IMG/VR virus record: IMGVR_UViG_2917855067_000004
Direction: 5' to 3' (one strand)
DNA length: 29,767 nucleotides
DNA from: a virus
Taxonomy: Duplodnaviria; Heunggongvirae; Uroviricota; Caudoviricetes
The notes beneath the pieces are model-generated. The model was not told where the DNA came from. It did not search any database and saw only the letters and a program-made list of their open reading frames with translations. Position numbers and translations under genes: made by a program. Every line of letters begins with the position of its first letter. The first letter of the stretch is position 1. Shown one piece after another: positions 2,318 to 24,296 of this stretch.

Positions 2318-4762
2318 TCAGTAGTCGTGGGTCATACTGGCACGCTGACGGGCGCGTTTATCACGCTCAACCTGTTCGAGCGTGTCACGTAACTGTCGGT
2401 CGAGTTGATGCCCCGGCGCAACGCCACCCGGTAGAGTGATGTTATATTCGCTTTTGCTCTGGTCGATGTAAGAGCGCCCCGCCGGTGCGGTAACGGGCTG
2501 ATAAGCCTGATAGCCGCCATATGTGCTGGTTGCCGGGATGTAGGAATTACCCTGTGTGGCGGCATTGGTTTTGGCTGCGGTCTGGTCGAGACTGTCCGAC
2601 TCTTTGTTGATGATACCGAGCTTTTCGAGAAGCCAGTCGACGCCGCTGCGCAGCTTGTTAAAAACATTGAGCGGAGCCATCAAGGCAGAGGCCAGCGTCT
2701 GACCAAATATGACGCCGACATTTTTGCAGCTATCGAGCGTCTCCTGCGTGGCCTTGACTGGTGCAATCAGGTCTTTAAACCACTGCCAGACGCCACGCAG
2801 CTTCTCGCCGAGGCCGTCAAAGATGGGAGCCAGTGGTGTGAACATTTCCCCGACTGGCGCAAAGGCGCTCATGATGCCCTCAATCACCCCCGAAAAAAAT
2901 GCACTGATGGGCTCCCAATATTTACGGATGAGTAGCGCCCCGGCCACAATCGCCGCACCGACGGCCACAATCGGCCAGGTAATCGCGCCGAGTGCGGTCA
3001 CAATTGCACTGCCAACGACAGTAAAGACCGTACCTAACACGCCAGCAGCGGCGATAATGGCGTTAATTCCCATGACAACCGGCCATGCAACAAGACCAAT
3101 GCCGCCGATGATACCAATCAGAGCAAGTGCGCCACCGGCAATGATGCCGATAGTTGTCGCAAGACCTTTGTTTTTCTGGATCCAGCCGTCGAGCTTTAAC
3201 ACATATTGCGTGGCGGTTTGGGTGAGTTTACGCAGCGAGCCCTCTTGCTGGTCAAAAAGGTCGGTACCGACTGCCTCATAAGCAGACTGGAACTCTTTGA
3301 AGTCGCCGCCGAGGTTATCCTGCATAACCTTGACCAGTTCCTCGGTTTTACCGTCAGAGGCTTTAAACGCGGCGGTGAGCTGGTCGAGTTTGCCGCTTGA
3401 GGCTGCTTCCATTAGTACCGCCGCCGCCGAGCTGGCCTCCTCGCCAAAAATGGTTTTCATGTACTCGCCGCGCTGGCTTGTCCCGAGGTTGTTTTTCTCA
3501 AAGCTGCGCTGCATTTCTTTCAGGATGGAGAATATCGGGCGCGTGTTCCCCTTGCTGTCGGACGTTTTGACGCCGAGCTCCTTAATGGCCTCAAACGCTT
3601 TTCCGGTGGGAGCCTGCAGGCGACTTAGAATGGCGCGGCTACCTGTGCCCGCCATTGACCCGGTGATTTTGGCGTCGTGCAGCGCCCCGACCATTGCGGC
3701 GGTTTGCTCGATGCTCACCCCGGCATTTTTTGCCACCGGCGCGGCATAGGTCAGAGCGTCGCTCAGTCCGTCAAAATCGGCGGCGGTTTTGTTCATCGTC
3801 ATCGAGAGAACGTCGCCAATATGCGCAATCTTGTCGTTTGAAAGCTGAAACGCTGATTTCATCCCTGTCAGCAGCGCAGCGTTTTCTTCCATCGTTCGCC
3901 GGTTTGACAGTGCCATATTCAGCGTGACCGGTGTCGCCGCCTGAATGGCAGCAGCGTCACCACCGCTTTTCGCAATGATGATTTGCGCGCTCGCTGCGTC
4001 ATCTGCAGAGGCGGCAGTATTGTCGCCGAGCTGGCGCGCCTGTTTGCGTAGCGCCTGCATTTCTGGCGACTGCTTATCGACCCCGAGCACGGCCTGCAGT
4101 TCGGAATTTTTCTGCGCAAAGTCATAACCGGGCATCAGTAATTTAACCCCGGCCATCGTTCCCGCTGTCGCGATACCGACCCCGGCGGCACCTGCAGCGG
4201 CCATGTTACCGGCAAGCTCCTTGCCTGATTTATATCGCTCTTTCACCCGGACTAATTTCGCCTGCTGTGCACTGACGCGCGCCAGTGCCTCGCGCTGGCG
4301 GTTAAGCTGCGCCGTCGTTTCACTTATGCGACTTTTTAATCCTCGCTCGTCATTGGCAAGGTTGCGGGTATTAATTCCCGCCGCACCCAGCTCGCGTTGC
4401 TGACGTTTTATCGACTCGGTAAGGCTGCTGTATTTAACCTGCAGACCATCAGCTGCACGCTTTGCCGATTCAAGCACCTGCGCCTGCGCACGAGTTGGTC
4501 GCTCGGTGTTTTTAAATTGGGTAGCAAGCTCCTCGGCTTCACGCTTCGCTTTTTCAAGCGACTGTCCCGTTACGGCCAGTTGTGCACTGGCCTTACGAAA
4601 GCCGTCAATTTTTGCTGCTTGCCCGTTAAGGTCACGCAGCCCTTTTTGTGTGTCGCGAATATCCGCCGTCAGGGCTTTACTCTCAGCCTGAATGGATTTA
4701 AGCGGTCGGGTCGCCTGGTCGACCGCTTTCAGCAAAACCTCAAGCCTCAGGTTATTACTCAT
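2318..4762 (-). CDS. T: Tail tape measure protein T
   Basis: 814 aa, coiled-coil N-terminal part and Gly/Ala-rich hydrophobic segments; size matches P2 gpT; start ATG at 4760-4762. Confidence 0.92.
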   Translation of the reverse strand: MSNNLRLEVLLKAVDQATRPLKSIQAESKALTADIRDTQKGLRDLNGQAAKIDGFRKASAQLAVTGQSLEKAKREAEELATQFKNTERPTRAQAQVLESAKRAADGLQVKYSSLTESIKRQQRELGAAGINTRNLANDERGLKSRISETTAQLNRQREALARVSAQQAKLVRVKERYKSGKELAGNMAAAGAAGVGIATAGTMAGVKLLMPGYDFAQKNSELQAVLGVDKQSPEMQALRKQARQLGDNTAASADDAASAQIIIAKSGGDAAAIQAATPVTLNMALSNRRTMEENAALLTGMKSAFQLSNDKIAHIGDVLSMTMNKTAADFDGLSDALTYAAPVAKNAGVSIEQTAAMVGALHDAKITGSMAGTGSRAILSRLQAPTGKAFEAIKELGVKTSDSKGNTRPIFSILKEMQRSFEKNNLGTSQRGEYMKTIFGEEASSAAAVLMEAASSGKLDQLTAAFKASDGKTEELVKVMQDNLGGDFKEFQSAYEAVGTDLFDQQEGSLRKLTQTATQYVLKLDGWIQKNKGLATTIGIIAGGALALIGIIGGIGLVAWPVVMGINAIIAAAGVLGTVFTVVGSAIVTALGAITWPIVAVGAAIVAGALLIRKYWEPISAFFSGVIEGIMSAFAPVGEMFTPLAPIFDGLGEKLRGVWQWFKDLIAPVKATQETLDSCKNVGVIFGQTLASALMAPLNVFNKLRSGVDWLLEKLGIINKESDSLDQTAAKTNAATQGNSYIPATSTYGGYQAYQPVTAPAGRSYIDQSKSEYNITLPGGVAPGHQLDRQLRDTLEQVERDKRARQRASMTHDY

Positions 4763-18802: not shown

Positions 18803-19849
18803 ATGGGTAAACAAAAATCCCGCAAAGTCGCTGCGCAGAAGGCCAGCAAGCCACAACAACTGACCGCCAGCGCACCGCCAAAAACAACTGCTTTTACCTT
18901 CGGCGAGCCGGTGCCGGTGCTCGATAAGCGCGATATTCTGGATTACGTCGAGTGCATCAGTAACGGCAAATGGTACGAGCCGCCGGTCAGCTTCTCCGGG
19001 CTGGCAAAGAGTCTGCGCTCTGCTGTACATCACAGCTCGCCGATTTACGTTAAGCGCAACGTGCTCGCGAGCACCTACATCCCGCACCCACTGCTGTCCC
19101 GTCAGGATTTCAGCCGCTTTGCGCTCGACTATCTCGTATTTGGCAACGCCTTTCTTGAGCAGCGCCACAGCGTTACCGGTCAGTTAATCAAACTGCTGGC
19201 CTCACCGGCCAAATACACCCGGCGCGGGATCGACGATTCGATTTTCTGGTTTGTGGAAAACTTCACTCTGCCGCATGAGTTCGCGCCTGATACCGTATTT
19301 CACCTGCTGGAGCCCGACATTAACCAGGAGATTTACGGTCTGCCCGAATATCTCAGCGCGCTTAATTCCGCCTGGCTGAATGAATCCGCGACGCTGTTCC
19401 GTCGCAAGTATTATCAGAACGGCGCGCACGCGGGTTACATCATGTATGTGACCGACCCGGCGCAGAGCGCGACCGACGTCGAATCGCTGCGCGAGGCGAT
19501 GCGCAACTCAAAAGGGCTCGGCAACTTTAAGAACCTGTTTTTCTACGCACCCGGCGGAAAACCGGACGGCATCAAAATCGTGCCGCTGAGCGAGGTCGCC
19601 ACAAAGGATGACTTTTTCAACATTAAAAAAGCCAGCGCTGCCGACCTGATGGACGCGCACCGCGTGCCGTTCCAGCTCATGGGCGGCAAGCCCGAGAATA
19701 TCGGTTCACTCGGTGACGTTGAGAAGGTGGCAAAGGTATTTGTGCGTAACGAGCTGTCACCCCTGCAGGACAGGTTCAGGGAGGTAAACGACTGGCTCGG
19801 CATGGAGGTCATCAGGTTCAAAGAGTACACCCTCGACAACCCGGAATAA
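18803..19849 (+). CDS. Q: Portal protein Q
   Basis: 348 aa immediately after P and adjacent to cos, as in P2. Confidence 0.9.
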   Translation: MGKQKSRKVAAQKASKPQQLTASAPPKTTAFTFGEPVPVLDKRDILDYVECISNGKWYEPPVSFSGLAKSLRSAVHHSSPIYVKRNVLASTYIPHPLLSRQDFSRFALDYLVFGNAFLEQRHSVTGQLIKLLASPAKYTRRGIDDSIFWFVENFTLPHEFAPDTVFHLLEPDINQEIYGLPEYLSALNSAWLNESATLFRRKYYQNGAHAGYIMYVTDPAQSATDVESLREAMRNSKGLGNFKNLFFYAPGGKPDGIKIVPLSEVATKDDFFNIKKASAADLMDAHRVPFQLMGGKPENIGSLGDVEKVAKVFVRNELSPLQDRFREVNDWLGMEVIRFKEYTLDNPE

Positions 19850-20025: not shown

Positions 20026-20044
20026 ATGCTTTCCCCGCCACGCC
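20026..20044. other. cos site (19-nt cohesive-end sequence of P2/186 type)
   Basis: The reverse complement reads GGCGTGGCGGGGAAAGCAT, which matches the 186 cohesive end as I remember it (P2 differs at 2 positions); it sits downstream of Q as expected. Confidence 0.75.
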
Positions 20045-20204
20045 TGCCCGCTTTATAGGGCGGTTTTAATGCAGTTGCATGATCACTCTGGATCCGCGCC
20101 AGCTCAGGCGGCGCACGGCCAGAACGGGCCCCCCCGGCGCATGCAAAACCATGCACCTGTTGCATGCACGGCTAAAAAACAGGGAAATCGCGTAAAAATG
20201 GCAT

Positions 20205-20247
20205 AAAAAAAAACCGGCATTCGCGGTGCCGGTTTCGGTCTGATTTT
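20205..20247. terminator. Bidirectional intrinsic terminator (strongest for the minus strand)
   Basis: A9 run, hairpin CCGGCA-TTCGCGG-TGCCGG, then a T-rich run; on the minus strand the hairpin is followed by U9. Confidence 0.6.
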
Positions 20248-20254
20248 GTCGCGA

Positions 20255-20356
20255 TTACTGGCCGCGCAATGCGCTGATAACACTATTGAGGCACATGCTG
20301 GCAACAATCAGCAGAAAAATTGTCGTCCACGGATTTTCATAAACGAGAGATAACAT
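20255..20356 (-). CDS. Hypothetical 33-aa single-TM peptide (MLSLVYENPWTTIFLLIVASMCLNSVISALRGQ)
   Basis: ATG at 20354-20356 with AAAGGA upstream; ~20-residue hydrophobic core; stop TAA at 20255-20257, directly followed by the strong terminator. Below the ORF-track length cutoff; not matched to a known family. Confidence 0.4.
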   Translation of the reverse strand: MLSLVYENPWTTIFLLIVASMCLNSVISALRGQ

Positions 20357-20372
20357 ATTGATATAGATCCTT

Positions 20373-20564
20373 TTATTTGTGCATTCTGATGTGGTTTAAC
20401 AGGTGTTTGATAATGGTCGTAAGCTCATCTTTACTGGCGTGCTCTACCATTTTTGCGGTGTAGCTTTCCACCTCGCGAGAGCTCAGGTCGTTATTTAAAG
20501 CCATTACAGTCAGCTTTTTTGCCCAATCGGCAAATGGGTCTATCGATGAAAGGGAATTATGCAT
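20373..20564 (-). CDS. Hypothetical 63-aa protein (MHNSLSSIDPFADWAKKLTVMALNNDLSSREVESYTAKMVEHASKDELTTIIKHLLNHIRMHK)
   Basis: Internal ATG at 20562-20564 with a GAGG Shine-Dalgarno 9 nt upstream; 16 nt upstream of the 33-aa peptide gene; AT-rich. The 91-aa track form starts at a weaker site. Confidence 0.5.
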   Translation of the reverse strand: MHNSLSSIDPFADWAKKLTVMALNNDLSSREVESYTAKMVEHASKDELTTIIKHLLNHIRMHK

Positions 20565-20995
20565 GTCCAAAAACCTCGAATTATTTAACCAGCAGACGGC
20601 GGAAATCTTTGCGGTGTTATGGGATAACTTCCCGGTGCCACAGGTCATTACCTACGAAAAATTTAAACGCCGCGCTACCTGATGACTACTTTGACCAACT
20701 TAACTCACCGGAAATGAAAGCACTGAATCAGTTGCGCAGTGTGGTTGAGGGTACATTCACTTTTCTCAGTGAAAACGGCTACATCCAGTACGGAACAGAC
20801 CACCAGACCTATTTTTATGATGTGCGCCTGACCGAGAAAGCACTCGCCGTGCTTAACAAAAAGCCCGAGGCGCTCGGCGGTAATGAAACAATGGGCGATA
20901 AGATTATCAGTGCAGTGAAAGACGGGACGCCGGGAGTGATTGCCGGTGCGGTGACAAACCTGCTTACCCTCGGTGTCAATCTGGTAACCAGTTAA
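20563..20995 (+). pseudogene. Frame-disrupted hypothetical gene: 39-aa frame-1 ORF (20563-20682) plus ~105-aa continuation in another frame to 20995
   Basis: ATG 20563 with AAGGGA 7 nt upstream gives MSKNLELFNQQTAEIFAVLWDNFPVPQVITYEKFKRRAT then tandem TGATGA; protein-like sequence continues one base out of frame (LPDDYFDQLNSPEMKALNQ...GVIAGAVTNLLTLGVNLVTS) to a TAA at 20993-20995. Confidence 0.4.
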
Positions 20996-20996
20996 C

Positions 20997-21052
20997 GCCT
21001 CGCGGGGCGTCGTTGTTCAACCCCGTCAGCACTGAAAGCGAGTTTCAGCGCT
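20997..21052. repeat. Structured repeat element R1 (GC stem-loop plus 10-bp hairpin with GCGAG loop)
   Basis: GCCTCGCGGGGCGTCGTTGTTCAACCCCGTC then AGCACTGAAA-GCGAG-TTTCAGCGCT; homologous to R2 about 405 bp away. Confidence 0.5.
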
Positions 21053-21062
21053 GAGACGTTTG

Positions 21063-21272
21063 CTATCGTCGACGTGGTGGAGGTGCGTATTTTGTCGGTC
21101 TGCTGATGCTATCCAGCTTGCCGCAATTATCCCTGACTATTTCGGCACACCCGACCAGCTCGGTGGGTGTCAAATTCTCATTGACCATTATCTGCTGCAG
21201 GCGATGAACGATAGCCATTAACTTAATATTTCTGGTCTGGTGCTGCGGTATTTCACCTGGTAGTCGATGCAT
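21063..21272 (-). CDS. Hypothetical 69-aa protein
   Basis: ATG at 21270-21272 with a GAGGG Shine-Dalgarno 7 nt upstream; lies between R2 and R1; no family recognised. Confidence 0.45.
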   Translation of the reverse strand: MHRLPGEIPQHQTRNIKLMAIVHRLQQIMVNENLTPTELVGCAEIVRDNCGKLDSISRPTKYAPPPRRR

Positions 21273-21401
21273 ATTATCACCCTCAATGAATTTTAATCAG
21301 TGCCGTCAAAACGCCACTATAAAACCCTCTCAGGTCATGCCTCATTCATCACTGGCGTGTCATCAATAGCACATTGAGAAATTTTGAAAGGCAGGACTAA
21401 A

Positions 21402-21455
21402 GCCTCGTGGGCTCGTTACTCAACCCCGTCGACGCAAAAAGCTAGTTTTTGCGCC
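21402..21455. repeat. Structured repeat element R2 (homologue of R1; hairpin with GCTAG loop)
   Basis: GCCTCGTGGGCTCGTTACTCAACCCCGTC then GACGCAAAAA-GCTAG-TTTTTGCGCC; stem differs from R1 by base changes that preserve pairing. Confidence 0.5.
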
Positions 21456-21471
21456 AACACGGTTATCATGT

Positions 21472-21702
21472 TTAACGCCAGCTATCGTCTTCCCAAATCT
21501 CTTGTAATATGCCGCTTAATGTTTCTTTGTCTGCTTCTTTATCGAATCCGATAACCTCTACACCAGTCATTGACCCTTTCTTGACGTTAACTTTTATTGC
21601 AGGAAAAACGCATTGTACTCGATGTGTTATTTCATTCTGAAAAGCATCAATGATCTGTTGCCCTAATTTTTGTTCTTTATCCAACGTGATATTGATTCTC
21701 AT
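21472..21702 (-). CDS. DinI-family protein (likely the C-terminal part of a Tum-like SOS-inducible antirepressor)
   Basis: 76 aa MRINITLDKEQKLGQQIIDAFQNEITHRVQCVFPAIKVNVKKGSMTGVEVIGFDKEADKETLSGILQEIWEDDSWR resembles E. coli DinI (MRIEVTIAK...ILQETWE) from memory. Confidence 0.8.
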   Translation of the reverse strand: MRINITLDKEQKLGQQIIDAFQNEITHRVQCVFPAIKVNVKKGSMTGVEVIGFDKEADKETLSGILQEIWEDDSWR

Positions 21703-21705
21703 AAT

Positions 21706-21888
21706 CTAATCAGCCTTATAAAAATTATCATCTTCGGTTTCGTTATTCTCGCTGTTTGCTAGGTCTGCAATGAGAGTGAGCGCGAGCTTTAAGTCTGATG
21801 GCTTGCAGTTTGCAATCAGAGATACCTCGGCAATAAATTGCACACAAGCCCACTTTTGCTGCGTTCGGCTGAAATGTTCGTCAACCAT
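21706..21888 (-). CDS. Hypothetical 60-aa protein, first gene of the LexA-box operon (possible Tum N-terminal part)
   Basis: ATG at 21886-21888 with AGGAGG 6 nt upstream; ends at a TAG that is in frame with, and one codon before, the DinI-like ATG. Confidence 0.55.
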   Translation of the reverse strand: MVDEHFSRTQQKWACVQFIAEVSLIANCKPSDLKLALTLIADLANSENNETEDDNFYKAD

Positions 21889-21907: not shown

Positions 21908-21927
21908 TACTGTATGTTTATACAGTA
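21908..21927. promoter_or_regulatory. LexA operator (SOS box) upstream of the orf60/DinI-like operon
   Basis: TACTGTATGTTTATACAGTA: CTGT-N8-ACAG with palindromic flanks, about 20 nt upstream of the orf60 ribosome-binding site. Confidence 0.8.
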
Positions 21928-22001: not shown

Positions 22002-24296
22002 TTACTCTGATATTGGTTTTGATGCTTCAGCTATCGCAGCAACACGATTAAGGATTTTTCTGGCTTTAGCCTCATGCGATGGTGCTGTGGAAAATATTTC
22101 TCCTTTGGCCGTTCCGCGTAGCCATTTACCATCAAAACAACTTTTACCACCGGCCATCAGGTGCAGAGCTTCGCCCCGGCTGATATTAATGCCGGTTGTC
22201 AAATGTATCTCTTCGATAGTTTTCGCTATAGCTGCGTTTTGCTCATCCGTTCCGTGGACGAATTTTCGCCGTGCTGCTGGCTTTTGCTTCCTGAGTCGGT
22301 TGGTCAACTCTCGTCTTTCACGCCGACTCAGTGGTTTTGTTAAATCCAGTATCGGTGGATCGCTTTCGCTTCCCGTACAGTTATTGACAGAACTCCGAGG
22401 GACGGCTTTGCCGTCCTGAAGGTCAACGGCCAAATCAACAGCATGCTTCGGAACAATCTTCCACTGAGTGAGTCGGGTTAATATCGGGCTCCCTGCACCT
22501 ATGGAGGAATCGTAGACCCCCTTAATACATACCGTTTCCTCACCGTACTGATTAAGCTCGGTACGCGGTTCATACAGTGTGCGCACCTGTAAATCATCGC
22601 GACGGACAAACGGTCCACCCTGCGCATTAACATACCCAGCCCAGTCACCAGCGTCGGCGGCATCATGGACGGCGGCAAACTCAACGCTCAGTCCGTGCGC
22701 GGTTTCGGTATCAGCGAGGCGACGCAACTCACGGTAAACCGTCACCGGCGCACCACCGATAAACTGAAACTGACGGATGTGCCAGCGCGAAGCCCATGCT
22801 GAAACGGCGGGGGCTGTCTCTTTCAGCAGTTCACCACTTTCATCATCGGTTTCACCATCGAGAGCATAACCGTCGATATTTTTTGAGATGTATTTAGCAA
22901 CATAGCCGGTTGCGCTGCCTTTCTCCGGGTCAATGGACTCGGCGTGGAAACGTGCTTTTTTGGATTTATCGCTTTTCAGTTCGTGGCGGTCTTCTTTCCA
23001 TGCGTATTTACGGACGATGGAGCGAACATATTCAACATCTTCCGGCAGCATGAACATCAGCATGTGCCAGTGTGGAGTGCCGTCGTGATGGGGCTCGGCG
23101 ACACGAATACCGAAAATACGGACATCTTCCCGATGTAGTTTGGCACGGATGCGCGCCCAGATACCGGTTAGATAGTTTTGCGTGTCAGCCGGGCTGGCAC
23201 CGCTCCATTTGCTGTTACGGTAACCGGCTTTAGTTGTGGCGTGATATTTTGACGGCGCGGTTAGAGTGTAAAACTCACCGACATAACCGAGCTCATTACA
23301 GATGTTTTCAAACCCACGAATGCGGGTCATGAGCTCACAGCGGCGAATCGCAGGGTTAGCAACTGAGCCATCATATTTTTCAATTAGGCTGATACGGTTG
23401 CCGTCTTCGTCTTCGAGATCCAGACCTTTGAGAAATTCACGAGTTCGGCGCTTTTGTTCACGCCAGTCAGTCACGCAGTTTTTACTCGCATAGGTGTTTT
23501 TTTTCTTGCTGACGTTGCCGACTGCAATTTGCAGGTGTTCGCGCCATGTAGCTGCAACCCGGCGCAAACGACCACGCCACCACCCATCGTTAAACATCTT
23601 GGCGATAGCCGGTGCGATTTCATCCGCTCCGACATATTTTTTTGCAACCCGATCCCAATGGGGTGGGATAACGTTGAACTGGAGGGAAATAAAGCCAGCA
23701 CGATTATACCAAGTGTACAGCGTTTTAAGCTCGCCGAATCCGTGGTCATTAATGCTGGCAAGTTCACCACGAATGAAATTAGCAATATCGGCGGCCAACA
23801 GGTCAACATCAGCGCGCGACATATCCGGGAGGCGGTTATATCGGGCGACCATATTAACCATGCGTGACGCCAGATATTGCATAAGCTGGGTATCAAAATG
23901 ACTTCCAAAAACAGAGGTTGATACCTTGCTGTTGATACCCGCGCATTCGTATTTTTTTGCGACCAATTCAAGACGCGGCAATGCCTTTTTGCAGAAGCTG
24001 ATCAAAAAGGCATTGGCTCGTTGAATGCCCTGATTTTGCTCCAGCACTGCCGCAGTGCGATAAACATCTAACCGCACGCAGTCGGGCTGGAGAGAAAGCA
24101 CCTTTTTCGCATGCAGCAAAGCCGCGAACATACGGTCGCGGCGATGCTGTTGCTCGTAAGTAAGGTATGGGCTGGCTATAGCCGACCGTGGAGCATTCCA
24201 CGGATAAGCAAAAGTAATATCTAATGCCCCTCCGTCATGTATCATCTGTCGACTTTCTTTTTGATTCCATAACATTGGTCGTGTAGCCTCCCACAA
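22002..24296 (-). CDS. A: Replication initiation protein A (rolling-circle nickase)
   Basis: 764 aa; size and position match P2 gpA; contains a His-hydrophobic-His motif (PHWHMLMF) and a YVAKY motif consistent with rolling-circle Rep proteins. Confidence 0.93.
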   Translation of the reverse strand: MWEATRPMLWNQKESRQMIHDGGALDITFAYPWNAPRSAIASPYLTYEQQHRRDRMFAALLHAKKVLSLQPDCVRLDVYRTAAVLEQNQGIQRANAFLISFCKKALPRLELVAKKYECAGINSKVSTSVFGSHFDTQLMQYLASRMVNMVARYNRLPDMSRADVDLLAADIANFIRGELASINDHGFGELKTLYTWYNRAGFISLQFNVIPPHWDRVAKKYVGADEIAPAIAKMFNDGWWRGRLRRVAATWREHLQIAVGNVSKKKNTYASKNCVTDWREQKRRTREFLKGLDLEDEDGNRISLIEKYDGSVANPAIRRCELMTRIRGFENICNELGYVGEFYTLTAPSKYHATTKAGYRNSKWSGASPADTQNYLTGIWARIRAKLHREDVRIFGIRVAEPHHDGTPHWHMLMFMLPEDVEYVRSIVRKYAWKEDRHELKSDKSKKARFHAESIDPEKGSATGYVAKYISKNIDGYALDGETDDESGELLKETAPAVSAWASRWHIRQFQFIGGAPVTVYRELRRLADTETAHGLSVEFAAVHDAADAGDWAGYVNAQGGPFVRRDDLQVRTLYEPRTELNQYGEETVCIKGVYDSSIGAGSPILTRLTQWKIVPKHAVDLAVDLQDGKAVPRSSVNNCTGSESDPPILDLTKPLSRRERRELTNRLRKQKPAARRKFVHGTDEQNAAIAKTIEEIHLTTGINISRGEALHLMAGGKSCFDGKWLRGTAKGEIFSTAPSHEAKARKILNRVAAIAEASKPISE

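What the first reader, a model, noticed from the sequence alone, without database searches (positions are those of the whole stretch)
20997..21455. Two homologous ~55-nt structured elements (R1, R2) with compensatory stem changes, each directly after a gene
R1 (20997-21052) and R2 (21402-21455) share a GCCTCG-G-run-loop-CAACCCCGTC segment followed by a 10-bp hairpin with a 5-nt GC(G/T)AG loop. The two hairpin stems differ in sequence but both keep pairing (for example T-A in one versus A-T in the other), which argues for a conserved structure. Neither is followed by a U-tract on either strand, so they are not canonical intrinsic terminators. R1 follows the frame-disrupted gene and orf69; R2 follows the DinI-like gene. 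A further shared 9-mer, GCTATCGTC, lies a few nt beyond each element inside the adjacent gene's 3' end. They could be RNA stability or processing elements, protein-binding sites, or recombination sites that let cassettes swap in this hotspot.
Basis: seen in the sequence. Interest (0 to 1): 0.6.

Follow-up and report, generated by a model that had tools for sequence, protein, structure and literature searches.

The report
Conserved RNA hairpin element after SOS-operon genes
The two repeats are real copies of a widespread, previously uncatalogued ~70-nt structured element that sits right after the DinI-type SOS-operon genes of many P2/186-like phages and marks the exact edge of the phage's swappable cargo (defence-gene) hotspot; it most likely works as an RNA on the minus strand.

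Summary
R1 (20992-21060) and R2 (21397-21464) are two copies of one ~70-nt element. It was found in at least 170 distinct sequence variants in P2/186/PSP3-like phages and prophages. It is absent from Rfam, from the genome annotations inspected, and from the searchable literature.

The element has two parts:
- An 18-19-bp hairpin (HP1) whose sequence drifts while pairing is kept. About 93-94% of cells are paired, and 10-15 of 18 pairs show compensatory changes.
- A nearly invariant 3' tail, GAACAACGAGC-loop-GCGAGGCGUUAG.

G·U pairs outnumber A·C mismatches 5-9 to 1 on the window's minus strand. The folding strand is therefore the sense strand of the LexA-controlled tumA-dinI-orf69 operon. HP1 usually starts 1-8 nt after a stop codon of a DinI/Tum, orf97 or orf69-family gene.

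In phage 186 the element lies upstream of the mapped terminator t95b, so it is not the terminator. Cargo of 0.2-3.2 kb is always inserted just 3' of the tail.

Best reading, at moderate confidence: a cis-acting RNA module at an operon end or between cistrons, acting in 3'-end protection or processing and carrying a start-site-like tail. It also serves as a homology anchor for cargo exchange. It fails the tests for integron attC sites, REP elements, ops sites and canonical terminators.

The parts
20992..21060 (-). R1, whole element (hairpin HP1 plus conserved tail). It is a slightly degenerate copy: 1-nt deletion in the 5' arm, 1-nt insertion in the tail, and UUAA instead of UUAG.
   Evidence: Covariance-model hit 21068..20989(-), 72 bits, E=6e-20; sequence read.
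21019..21060 (-). R1 hairpin HP1 (AAC...GUU; loop CUCGC at 21042..21038). It starts 2 nt after the orf69 stop codon UAG (21065..21063).
20992..21018 (-). R1 conserved tail, GAACAACGAcGCCCCGCGAGGCGUUAA. The stop codon TAA (20993-20995) of the plus-strand cargo gene lies inside it.
21397..21464 (-). R2, whole element. It belongs to the subfamily with tail GAGUAACGAGCCCACGAGGCUUUAG.
   Evidence: Covariance-model hit 21472..21394(-), 69 bits, E=4e-19. The same subtype, spaced about 404 nt upstream of a second copy, occurs in several other contigs.
21422..21464 (-). R2 hairpin HP1 (loop CUAGC at 21445..21441). It starts 7 nt after the dinI stop codon UAA (21474..21472).
   Evidence: (inverted repeat I3)
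21397..21421 (-). R2 conserved tail.
21472..21702 (-). dinI/tumB-like gene, immediately upstream of R2.
   Evidence: Pfam DinI PF06183, E=1.4e-18; phrog_189.
21063..21272 (-). orf69 (PSP3 gp37 family, phrog_11386), flanked by R2 and R1.
21706..21888 (-). tumA-like gene, the first gene of the SOS operon.
   Evidence: phrog_1993; PSP3 annotation.
21908..21927 (.). LexA-box-like palindrome TACTGTATGTTTATACAGTA upstream of tumA, at the position of p95/LexA in phage 186.
   Evidence: Sequence; 186 annotation. The CTGT-N8-ACAG consensus is from general knowledge.
20201..20236 (-). Homologue of the 186 terminator t95b (hairpin plus T9). This is the true intrinsic terminator of the operon and the far edge of the cargo slot.
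   Evidence: Terminator scan; alignment with 186.
20237..20991 (.). Cargo inserted between R1 and the t95b homologue: a frame-disrupted phrog_2266 gene (plus strand, 20563-20995) and a divergent phrog_2454 gene (minus strand, about 20373-20564).

Best explanation
R1 and R2 are two copies of a conserved cis-acting RNA module. It is transcribed as part of the LexA-controlled tumA-dinI-orf69 operon on the window's minus strand.

Each copy has two parts:
- A stable 18-19-bp hairpin that begins a few nucleotides after the stop codon of the upstream gene.
- A sequence-conserved, mostly single-stranded tail (GAACAACGAGC-loop-GCGAGGCGUUAG). It carries a Shine-Dalgarno-like GAGG and may form a weak second hairpin.

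**Most likely mechanism (inferred, not shown).** RNA polymerase reads through the hairpin. The hairpin then defines or protects the 3' end of the upstream dinI/tum or orf69 message. It could do this by blocking 3' exonucleases, or by acting as an RNase III-type processing site. Either way the core SOS genes would be insulated from whatever is downstream. In some phages the tail serves as the translation start region of a gene placed 2-3 nt after it.

**By-product.** The element is the last conserved sequence before the variable region. It therefore marks the left edge of the cargo hotspot and offers about 70 bp of homology for cargo exchange. It also allows gain or loss of the R-flanked orf69 by homologous recombination.
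For: **Shown**
1. Structure under selection. HP1 is 93.9% paired with 10 of 18 pairs compensatory in 54 sequences. It is 93.4% paired with 15 of 18 compensatory in 68 independent sequences. Slid controls give 31-49%.
2. Strand. There are 121 G·U cells against 13 A·C cells, and 103 against 20 in the second set. The sense strand folds better in 54 of 54 sequences (whole element) and 54 of 68 (HP1 region). In the window the minus strand has z = -3.4 and -3.9.
3. Position. In 92 of 98 contexts a sense ORF of at least 40 codons ends within 36 nt upstream of HP1. In 75 of these it ends within 8 nt, and the commonest distance is 2 nt. The upstream genes belong to only 3-4 families: DinI/Tum, orf97 and orf69/gp37.
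4. It is transcribed through. In the phage 186 record the element (30356-30411) lies between the orf97 stop and t95b, which is annotated as the 'p95 transcript terminator'.
5. The order 'element, then a short spacer, then an intrinsic terminator' recurs in lineages whose proteins are only 30-37% identical to the window's.
6. The tail stays nearly invariant even at positions that the search pattern did not constrain.
7. In 38 of 191 contexts an ORF (phrog_2100 or UmuD-like) starts at an ATG 2-3 nt after ...GAGGCGUUAG.
8. Cargo of 0.2-3.2 kb always begins right after the tail. Thirty of 110 loci are 'empty'.

**Inferred:** the stabiliser or processing role itself, and any RNase III involvement.
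Against: - No transcript-end, stability or cleavage data exist for this element.
- A plain exonuclease barrier does not need a 19-bp stem or an invariant 28-nt tail, so part of the function is unexplained.
- In 'empty' phages the t95b hairpin about 25 nt downstream already supplies a 3' hairpin, which makes a pure stabiliser role look redundant.
- The element is dispensable. Only about 18 of 80 species-representative P2-like prophages have it, and the reference P2 genome lacks it.
- The second hairpin (HP2) has only weak covariation support.
- G·T pairs would also be tolerated in single-stranded DNA, so the strand asymmetry does not strictly prove an RNA role.
Confidence: 0.5

Rival explanations
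1. DNA-level recombination element. The repeats would be sites at which cassettes are inserted, excised or swapped. This could be site-specific (integron attC-like), or the repeats could be maintained mainly as homology anchors for homologous recombination.
For: - The element sits exactly at the left edge of the cargo slot, and many unrelated cargos start right after the tail.
- Two direct copies flank orf69 (also in SW9, PSP3 and 613R3).
- The orf69-R unit occurs in phages whose replication protein gpA is only about 38% identical.
- The tail is identical in phages with 30-37% protein identity.
- AAC...GTT at the hairpin base, and GTTGAAC, fit the attC R' consensus GTTRRRY. That consensus is recalled from memory.
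Against: - No R'' box (RYYYAAC) pairs with GTTGAAC.
- The stem has a 1x1 mismatch, not extrahelical bases.
- The favoured folding strand is the sense (top) strand, whereas attC uses the bottom strand.
- A conserved 28-nt tail follows GTT, where an integron would have the next cassette.
- The cargo has no second copy at its far end.
- The far junction is variable, and a 20-nt deletion scar exists (L045).
- 'Empty' sites keep the element.
- HP1 keeps its pairing while its sequence drifts, which a mere homology anchor would not need.
- At most 3 copies occur per genome.
Confidence: 0.17
2. Transcription-level signal. One version is a hairpin-stabilised RNA polymerase pause or attenuator at the end of each SOS-operon gene. 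The GC-rich part of HP1 ends 11 nt before a G(-10)...C(-1)G(+1) pause-like site, GGUUGAACAAC|G. An ops-like GGCGUUAG follows and might recruit a NusG/RfaH-type factor. The other version is a weak terminator for converging plus-strand transcripts.
For: - The spacing and sequence fit the consensus pause as recalled from the literature.
- The tail's GGCGTTAG matches 7 of 8 bases of the ops core, and up to 10 of 12 of ops12 (GGCGGTAGCGTG) in the 186 type.
- On the plus strand the hairpin is followed by GTTTG(C/T).
- Terminator t95a of phage 186 occupies the same position after tum as R2 does after dinI.
Against: - The ops position G5 is T in nearly all copies, and G5A abolishes RfaH recruitment (PMC5995543).
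- No NusG paralogue was noticed among the genes looked at, but none was searched for.
- The pause match has low information content and was found after the fact.
- The 186 p95 transcript ends at t95b, not at the element.
- The plus-strand fold is poor because of A·C mismatches.
- The terminator scan calls nothing at either copy.
Confidence: 0.13
3. Trans-acting or otherwise specialised RNA. Examples are a small RNA derived from the 3' UTR whose conserved tail is a seed for a host or phage target, or a specific binding site for a host RNA-binding protein.
For: - The tail is extremely conserved in sequence across distant phages, as sRNA seeds and protein operators are.
- In 'empty' phages the element plus the terminator forms a compact, well-folding 3' end of about 130 nt (z = -3.5).
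Against: - In most loci, including this window, cargo separates the element from any terminator.
- No complementary target in the window beats shuffled controls.
- There is no Rfam match.
Confidence: 0.1
4. Single-stranded DNA signal for rolling-circle replication: a lagging-strand origin, a primosome assembly site, or a secondary site for the gpA nickase.
For: - The fold is strand-specific.
- The element lies 1-3 kb from the gpA origin, in a phage family that replicates by a rolling circle. The replication mode is general knowledge.
Against: - The element is absent from most P2-like prophages and from P2 itself, so it cannot be an essential replication signal.
- It has no similarity to the 186 ori nick region beyond chance.
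Confidence: 0.04

Closest known systems
Intercistronic or 3'-UTR stabiliser stem-loops (for example REP elements between malE and malF)
   Same: A stable hairpin directly after a stop codon, inside or at the end of an operon. It has no U-tract, is read through by RNA polymerase, and could block 3' exonucleases. Hairpins within about 15 nt of a stop codon can also damp translation. These REP properties are from general knowledge.
   Different: - It is not a REP sequence.
- At most 3 copies occur per genome, and only in P2-like prophages.
- The stem is longer.
- It carries an invariant 28-nt tail that REP elements lack.
RNase III processing hairpins of phages (T7 intergenic sites, lambda sib)
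   Same: A double-stranded stem of about 20 bp with a small internal mismatch, placed after successive genes of one phage transcript. Such hairpins can leave a protective structure on the upstream message.
   Different: No cleavage data exist. The proximal and distal box rules were not evaluated. There is no sequence similarity.
Intrinsic terminators t95a and t95b of the phage 186 SOS operon
   Same: Same operon and same positions. Terminator t95a follows tum, where R2 follows dinI. Terminator t95b follows the element in 186 and is conserved in the window at 20201-20236.
   Different: The element has no U-tract (it continues ...GGGGUU GAACAACG), and the 186 annotation places the transcript end downstream of it.
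Integron attC sites
   Same: - An imperfect hairpin at the 3' end of accessory genes.
- Structure is conserved more than sequence.
- AAC/GTT lies at the stem base.
- Folding is strand-biased.
- The operon is SOS-controlled.
   Different: - No R'' box.
- No extrahelical bases.
- The wrong strand folds.
- A conserved tail lies where the next cassette should begin.
- No integron integrase was noticed near the element, but none was searched for.
- Junctions are imprecise.
ops / JUMPStart element recognised by RfaH
   Same: GGCGTTAG in the non-template (sense) strand, just upstream of horizontally acquired genes. It matches 7 of 8 bases of GGCGGTAG.
   Different: The critical base G5 is T (PMC5995543), and many cargos are convergent, so they could not benefit from antitermination.

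Membership tests
Intrinsic (Rho-independent) terminator | GC-rich hairpin immediately followed by a U-tract on the transcribed strand. | tested here: not met
   On the sense strand the hairpin is followed by GAACAACG. On the plus strand it is followed by GUUUGCUAU (R1) or by GGUUAUCAUGUUU (R2). The consensus scan calls neither copy on either strand, but it does call the t95b homologue.
Intrinsic (Rho-independent) terminator | Transcripts end at the element. | tested here: not met
   This rests on annotation only. The phage 186 record places the 'p95 transcript terminator' t95b downstream of the element. No data exist for this window.
Integron attC site | A 7-bp R box in which R'' (RYYYAAC) pairs with R' (GTTRRRY). 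| tested here: not met
   GTTGAAC fits R'. The 4 nt before AAC (AGCA, GACA, AATA, TGAT and others) do not pair with GAAC.
Integron attC site | Extrahelical bases and an unpaired central spacer, with bottom-strand folding favoured. | tested here: not met
   There is only a 1x1 mismatch at stem position 4. The G·U excess lies on the strand that is sense to the ORFs.
Integron attC site | The cassette boundary lies inside GTT, each cassette carries its own site, and an integron integrase with attI is nearby. | tested here: not met
   A conserved 28-nt tail follows GTT. The cargo after R1 has no second copy. The far junctions are variable. Integrase was not searched for specifically.
REP / BIME elements | REP consensus palindrome present in hundreds of extragenic copies per genome. 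| tested here: not met
   The element was found in 530 of 5426 E. coli genomes, with a median of 1 and at most 3 places per genome. Where context was checked, the loci are P2-like prophages.
ops site (RfaH recruitment) | GGCGGTAG core with invariant G5 and T6, a C3:G8 pair, and a TG pause at positions 11-12. | tested here: not met
   The tail reads GGCGTTAG, with T at position 5 in nearly all copies. G5A abolishes recruitment (PMC5995543). TG at positions 11-12 is present only in the 186-type flank.
RNase III processing site | About two turns of double-stranded RNA, and cleavage by RNase III. | not testable with these tools
   The stem length of 18-19 bp fits. Cleavage cannot be assessed computationally here.
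Any curated RNA family (Rfam 15) | Covariance-model match at or near the gathering score. | tested here: not met
   There is no match at gathering thresholds in the window. Only snoRNA or miRNA noise appears at E up to 10 around the element and in the 186 homologue.
Structured RNA motif (generic: conserved secondary structure with covariation) | Compensatory base changes across many independent sequences, with strand specificity. | tested here: met

The most novel reading that the evidence does not exclude
The element may be a new, dedicated regulatory RNA of P2/186-like phages. It would be a two-part 'gatekeeper' at the boundary between the SOS antirepressor module and the defence-cargo slot. 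Its invariant tail would be read by a conserved host factor such as RNA polymerase, the ribosome or an RNase. That reading would set how much transcription and translation passes from the SOS operon into whatever cargo is inserted. The same conserved sequence would also guide modular cargo exchange between distantly related phages.
Probability: 0.15. Interest if true: 0.75.

Novelty: new variant of a known kind. Interest (0 to 1): 0.55.

Why it matters
P2-like prophages are a major vehicle of anti-phage defence genes, and the slot between cos and the replication/SOS genes is one of their two known hotspots. Recent surveys describe rapid swapping at this slot but do not mention any conserved non-coding element at its edge (text searches of PMC9122126 and PMC13586616).

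This element gives three things:
- A precise, searchable left boundary for the slot.
- A candidate cis-regulator of the antirepressor/DinI genes and of cargo expression.
- A well-supported new RNA motif with strong covariation (more than 170 variants) that could be added to RNA family databases and tested directly.

Tried and rejected
1. **Rfam.** Scans at gathering and at permissive thresholds found nothing relevant, for the window and for the 186 homologue.
2. **Literature.** Searches by sequence strings found only unrelated PCR primers. Nilsson 2004 and Odegrip 2006 are not held. According to a citing review, Nilsson 2004 concerns inverted repeats at the other hotspot, Z/fun.
3. **Similarity to the gpA origin or nick site.** It is no better than shuffled sequence.
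4. **G-run/C-run hairpin and three-way junction** (the predicted fold of R1). The 'loop' between AACGAGC and GCGAGG varies freely, and the CGGGG/CCCCG pairing is not kept.
5. **Pseudoknot between the HP1 loop (CUYGY) and GCGAG.** It is 89% paired in the 186/PSP3 subfamily, but the loop is not conserved in the wider family. It is therefore at most a subfamily feature.
6. **Stop codon supplied to converging cargo genes by the tail.** This holds only for the phrog_2266 family: at most 18 of 115 contexts, and 9 with an ORF of at least 100 codons.
7. **Trans target within the window.** No duplex is better than shuffled controls.
8. **Orphan tails in prophages without the element.** Only one case was found, L132.
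9. **Universality.** The element is absent from most species-representative P2-like prophages and from the reference P2 genome.

Full report
**Context**

The window is a 186/PSP3-like member of the P2 phage family. Its layout is as follows:
- The portal gene Q lies at 18803-19849(+).
- A 186-type cos site follows. The right end of the 186 record aligns to about 20045.
- A homologue of the 186 terminator t95b lies at 20201-20236(-).
- On the minus strand come gpA (24296..22002), a LexA-box-like palindrome (21908-21927), tumA (21888..21706), dinI/tumB (21702..21472, Pfam DinI E=1.4e-18), R2, orf69 (21272..21063, PSP3 gp37 family) and R1.
- Between R1 and the t95b homologue lie 747 nt of cargo. 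It consists of a frame-disrupted phrog_2266 gene on the plus strand and a small divergent phrog_2454 gene.

Yes. R1 and R2 are 71-76% identical. A covariance model built only from other phages finds exactly these two sites in the window, at 72 and 69 bits (E about 1e-19 to 1e-20).

It has 18-19 bp, from an invariant AAC to an invariant GUU, with a frequent 1x1 mismatch at the fourth position.

The minus strand folds far better than the plus strand (z = -3.4 and -3.9 against -1.2 and -0.7). The reason is that several pairs are G·U on the minus strand and would be A·C on the plus strand.

**The family**

- BLAST finds the R1 type in about 60 phage records, including 186, PSP3, P2-EC58 and P2-EC67, and phages of Yersinia, Klebsiella and Erwinia.
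- Three pattern scans of IMG/VR each stopped at the 120-locus limit. Together they yielded 91 and then 81 further distinct variants.
- At least 530 of 5426 complete E. coli genomes carry the element, with a median of 1 and at most 3 copies, none annotated.
- It is not universal. Only about 18 of 80 species-representative P2-like prophages have it, even though the whole Q-to-gpA interval was in hand for nearly all of them. The reference P2 genome lacks it. There, a DUF3850 gene (orf91) abuts tin.

**Structure**

- In a 54-sequence alignment the long hairpin is 93.9% paired, with 10 of 18 pairs showing compensatory double changes in 60 cells. No shuffle out of 500 reaches this, and sliding the 3' partner by 1-3 columns gives 31-49% paired.
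- In an independent 68-sequence set, retrieved by anchoring only on the 3' end of the tail, 15 of 18 pairs show double changes (148 cells) at 93.4% paired. This includes the lower stem, for example CC/GG changing to UU/AA.
- G·U cells outnumber A·C cells 121 to 13 and 103 to 20. Selection therefore acts on the strand that is sense to the SOS operon.
- After the hairpin comes GAACAACGAGC, then 2-5 variable nt, then GCGAGGCGUUAG. This tail is almost invariant. That holds at positions my patterns did not constrain. It also holds in phages whose gpA, portal and terminase are only 30-37% identical to the window's.
- RNAalifold proposes a weak second hairpin in the tail (AAC..C..GC[loop]GC..G..GUU, with tandem G·A). 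It would explain why only the 2-5-nt segment varies, but covariation support is thin.
- A loop-tail pseudoknot looks good in the 186/PSP3 subfamily (89% paired) but not in the wider family.

**Position**

- In 92 of 98 distinct contexts a sense-strand ORF ends just upstream of the hairpin. In 75 of these it ends within 8 nt, and the commonest distance is 2 nt.
- These ORFs fall into only three main families: DinI/Tum, orf97 and orf69/gp37. The element therefore belongs to the SOS/antirepressor module, not to arbitrary cassettes.
- In the phage 186 record the element lies between the orf97 stop and t95b, which is annotated as the terminator of the p95 transcript. The different terminator t95a follows tum. 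In 186, then, RNA polymerase reads through the element.
- The arrangement 'element, short spacer, intrinsic terminator, cos' recurs in at least three divergent lineages. It is probably the basic state.

**Relation to the cargo hotspot**

- In 110 loci with recognisable cos-proximal homology, 30 are 'empty'. In these about 25 nt separate the element from t95b.
- The other 80 carry 0.2-3.2 kb of unrelated cargo that begins immediately after the tail.
- The far junction is variable. Homology to the cos side resumes at several different points.
- One contig keeps a 20-nt scar of the window's cargo gene between the element and t95b (L045).
- One prophage without the element keeps only a tail-like remnant (L132).

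This is the pattern expected from illegitimate or homologous recombination combined with selection to keep the element intact. It is not the pattern of precise site-specific exchange.

Two direct copies flanking orf69 (71-76% identical here) could mediate its loss or gain. The orf69-R unit also occurs in phages with a very different gpA.

In 38 of 191 contexts a co-directional gene (phrog_2100, or a UmuD-like gene) starts at an ATG 2-3 nt after ...GAGGCGUUAG. The tail can therefore act as that gene's ribosome-binding region.

**Interpretation**

The best-supported reading is a cis-acting RNA module of the SOS-operon transcript. It would combine a stable hairpin next to the stop codon, which protects or processes the 3' end of the upstream message and insulates it from the downstream region, with a conserved tail that resembles a translation start region.

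The structure, the strand, the position and the read-through are shown. The stabiliser or processing mechanism is inferred. The reason for the tail's extreme conservation remains unexplained.

Rivals:
- A DNA recombination site. It fails the attC tests I could apply, but the homology-anchor role is plausible as a by-product.
- A transcriptional pause or ops-like signal. The spacing fits the consensus pause, but the critical ops base G5 is T.
- A trans-acting sRNA or a protein operator. No target was found in the window.
- A single-stranded DNA replication signal. The element is dispensable and unlike ori.

**Novelty**

There is no Rfam family. No record I inspected annotates it. No sequence-string hit turned up in the literature. 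Text searches for 'terminator', 'hairpin', 'stem-loop' and 'palindrom' in the two papers on P2 hotspots found nothing, and 'repeat' turned up only in unrelated senses. Classical subscription papers on 186 and P2 could not be read, so an older passing mention cannot be excluded.

Noticed in passing
window 20563-20995 (+): The cargo gene next to R1 (phrog_2266) is frame-disrupted near 20680. Its N-terminal 39 codons and C-terminal 106 codons lie in different frames. Intact 176-codon homologues that end at the same TAA inside the element's tail occur in L051, L059, L067, L077, L133 and L138. SW9 and L012 carry an internally deleted version.
   Followed up: partly
window 20373-20564 (-) and 20563 (+): A small phrog_2454 gene and the phrog_2266 gene are divergent, with start codons overlapping in TGCATG. 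Together they form a two-gene cargo module of unknown function in the defence hotspot.
   Followed up: no
window 21908-21927: LexA-box-like palindrome TACTGTATGTTTATACAGTA upstream of tumA, at the position of the LexA site in p95 of phage 186. R2 and R1 therefore lie in an SOS-induced transcript.
   Followed up: partly
window 20026-20044 (-) and 20201-20236 (-): A 186-type cohesive-end sequence GGCGTGGCGGGGAAAGCAT; the right end of the 186 record aligns to about 20045. A strong hairpin with a T9 run is the homologue of the 186 terminator t95b. On the plus strand that hairpin is preceded by an A-run, so it may be bidirectional.
   Followed up: partly
L254 (dinI-R-phrog_2100-terminator-cos) versus L238 (same backbone, empty); L278: In about 20% of contexts an ORF (phrog_2100, unknown function, or a UmuD-like gene, phrog_3469) starts at an ATG 2-3 nt after the tail. 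GAGG then lies 9-10 nt upstream and could act as its Shine-Dalgarno sequence.
   Followed up: partly
alignment A2 columns 32-36 with 72-76; window R1 loop 21042..21038 with 21003..20999: In the 186/PSP3 subfamily the hairpin loop CUYGY is complementary to GCGAG of the tail (89% of cells paired). This would be a pseudoknot that excludes the second hairpin. It is not conserved in the wider family.
   Followed up: yes
tail of the element, e.g. window 20992-20999 (-), and L003 2546-2557: GGCGTTAG resembles the RfaH ops core GGCGGTAG. The 186-type flank GGCGTTAGCCTG matches ops12 at 10 of 12 positions. Three rare variants read GGCGGTAG exactly. The critical G5 is T in almost all copies.
   Followed up: partly
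L090 5225-5340 and L092: A distant P2-like phage (gpA 33%, portal 30% identical to the window's) carries the element with an identical tail. Ten nt later comes a bidirectional intrinsic terminator (A8-CCGC-TTTC-GCGG-GGTTTCTGTTTT) and then a converging gene.
   Followed up: partly
L003 1690-1721 (phage 186 t95a): Terminator t95a after tum ends ...CAUGGGGUUGUUUUGU. It shares GGGGUUG with the 3' arm and linker of the element (GGCGGGGUUGAACAACG). It may be a derived copy that gained a U-tract, or this may be coincidence.
   Followed up: no
E. coli chromosomes (hits at about 2623-3015): Several 'complete' E. coli assemblies have the element about 2.6-3.0 kb from coordinate 1. This suggests that the chromosomes were rotated to start at the prophage gpA replication gene rather than at dnaA.
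   Followed up: no
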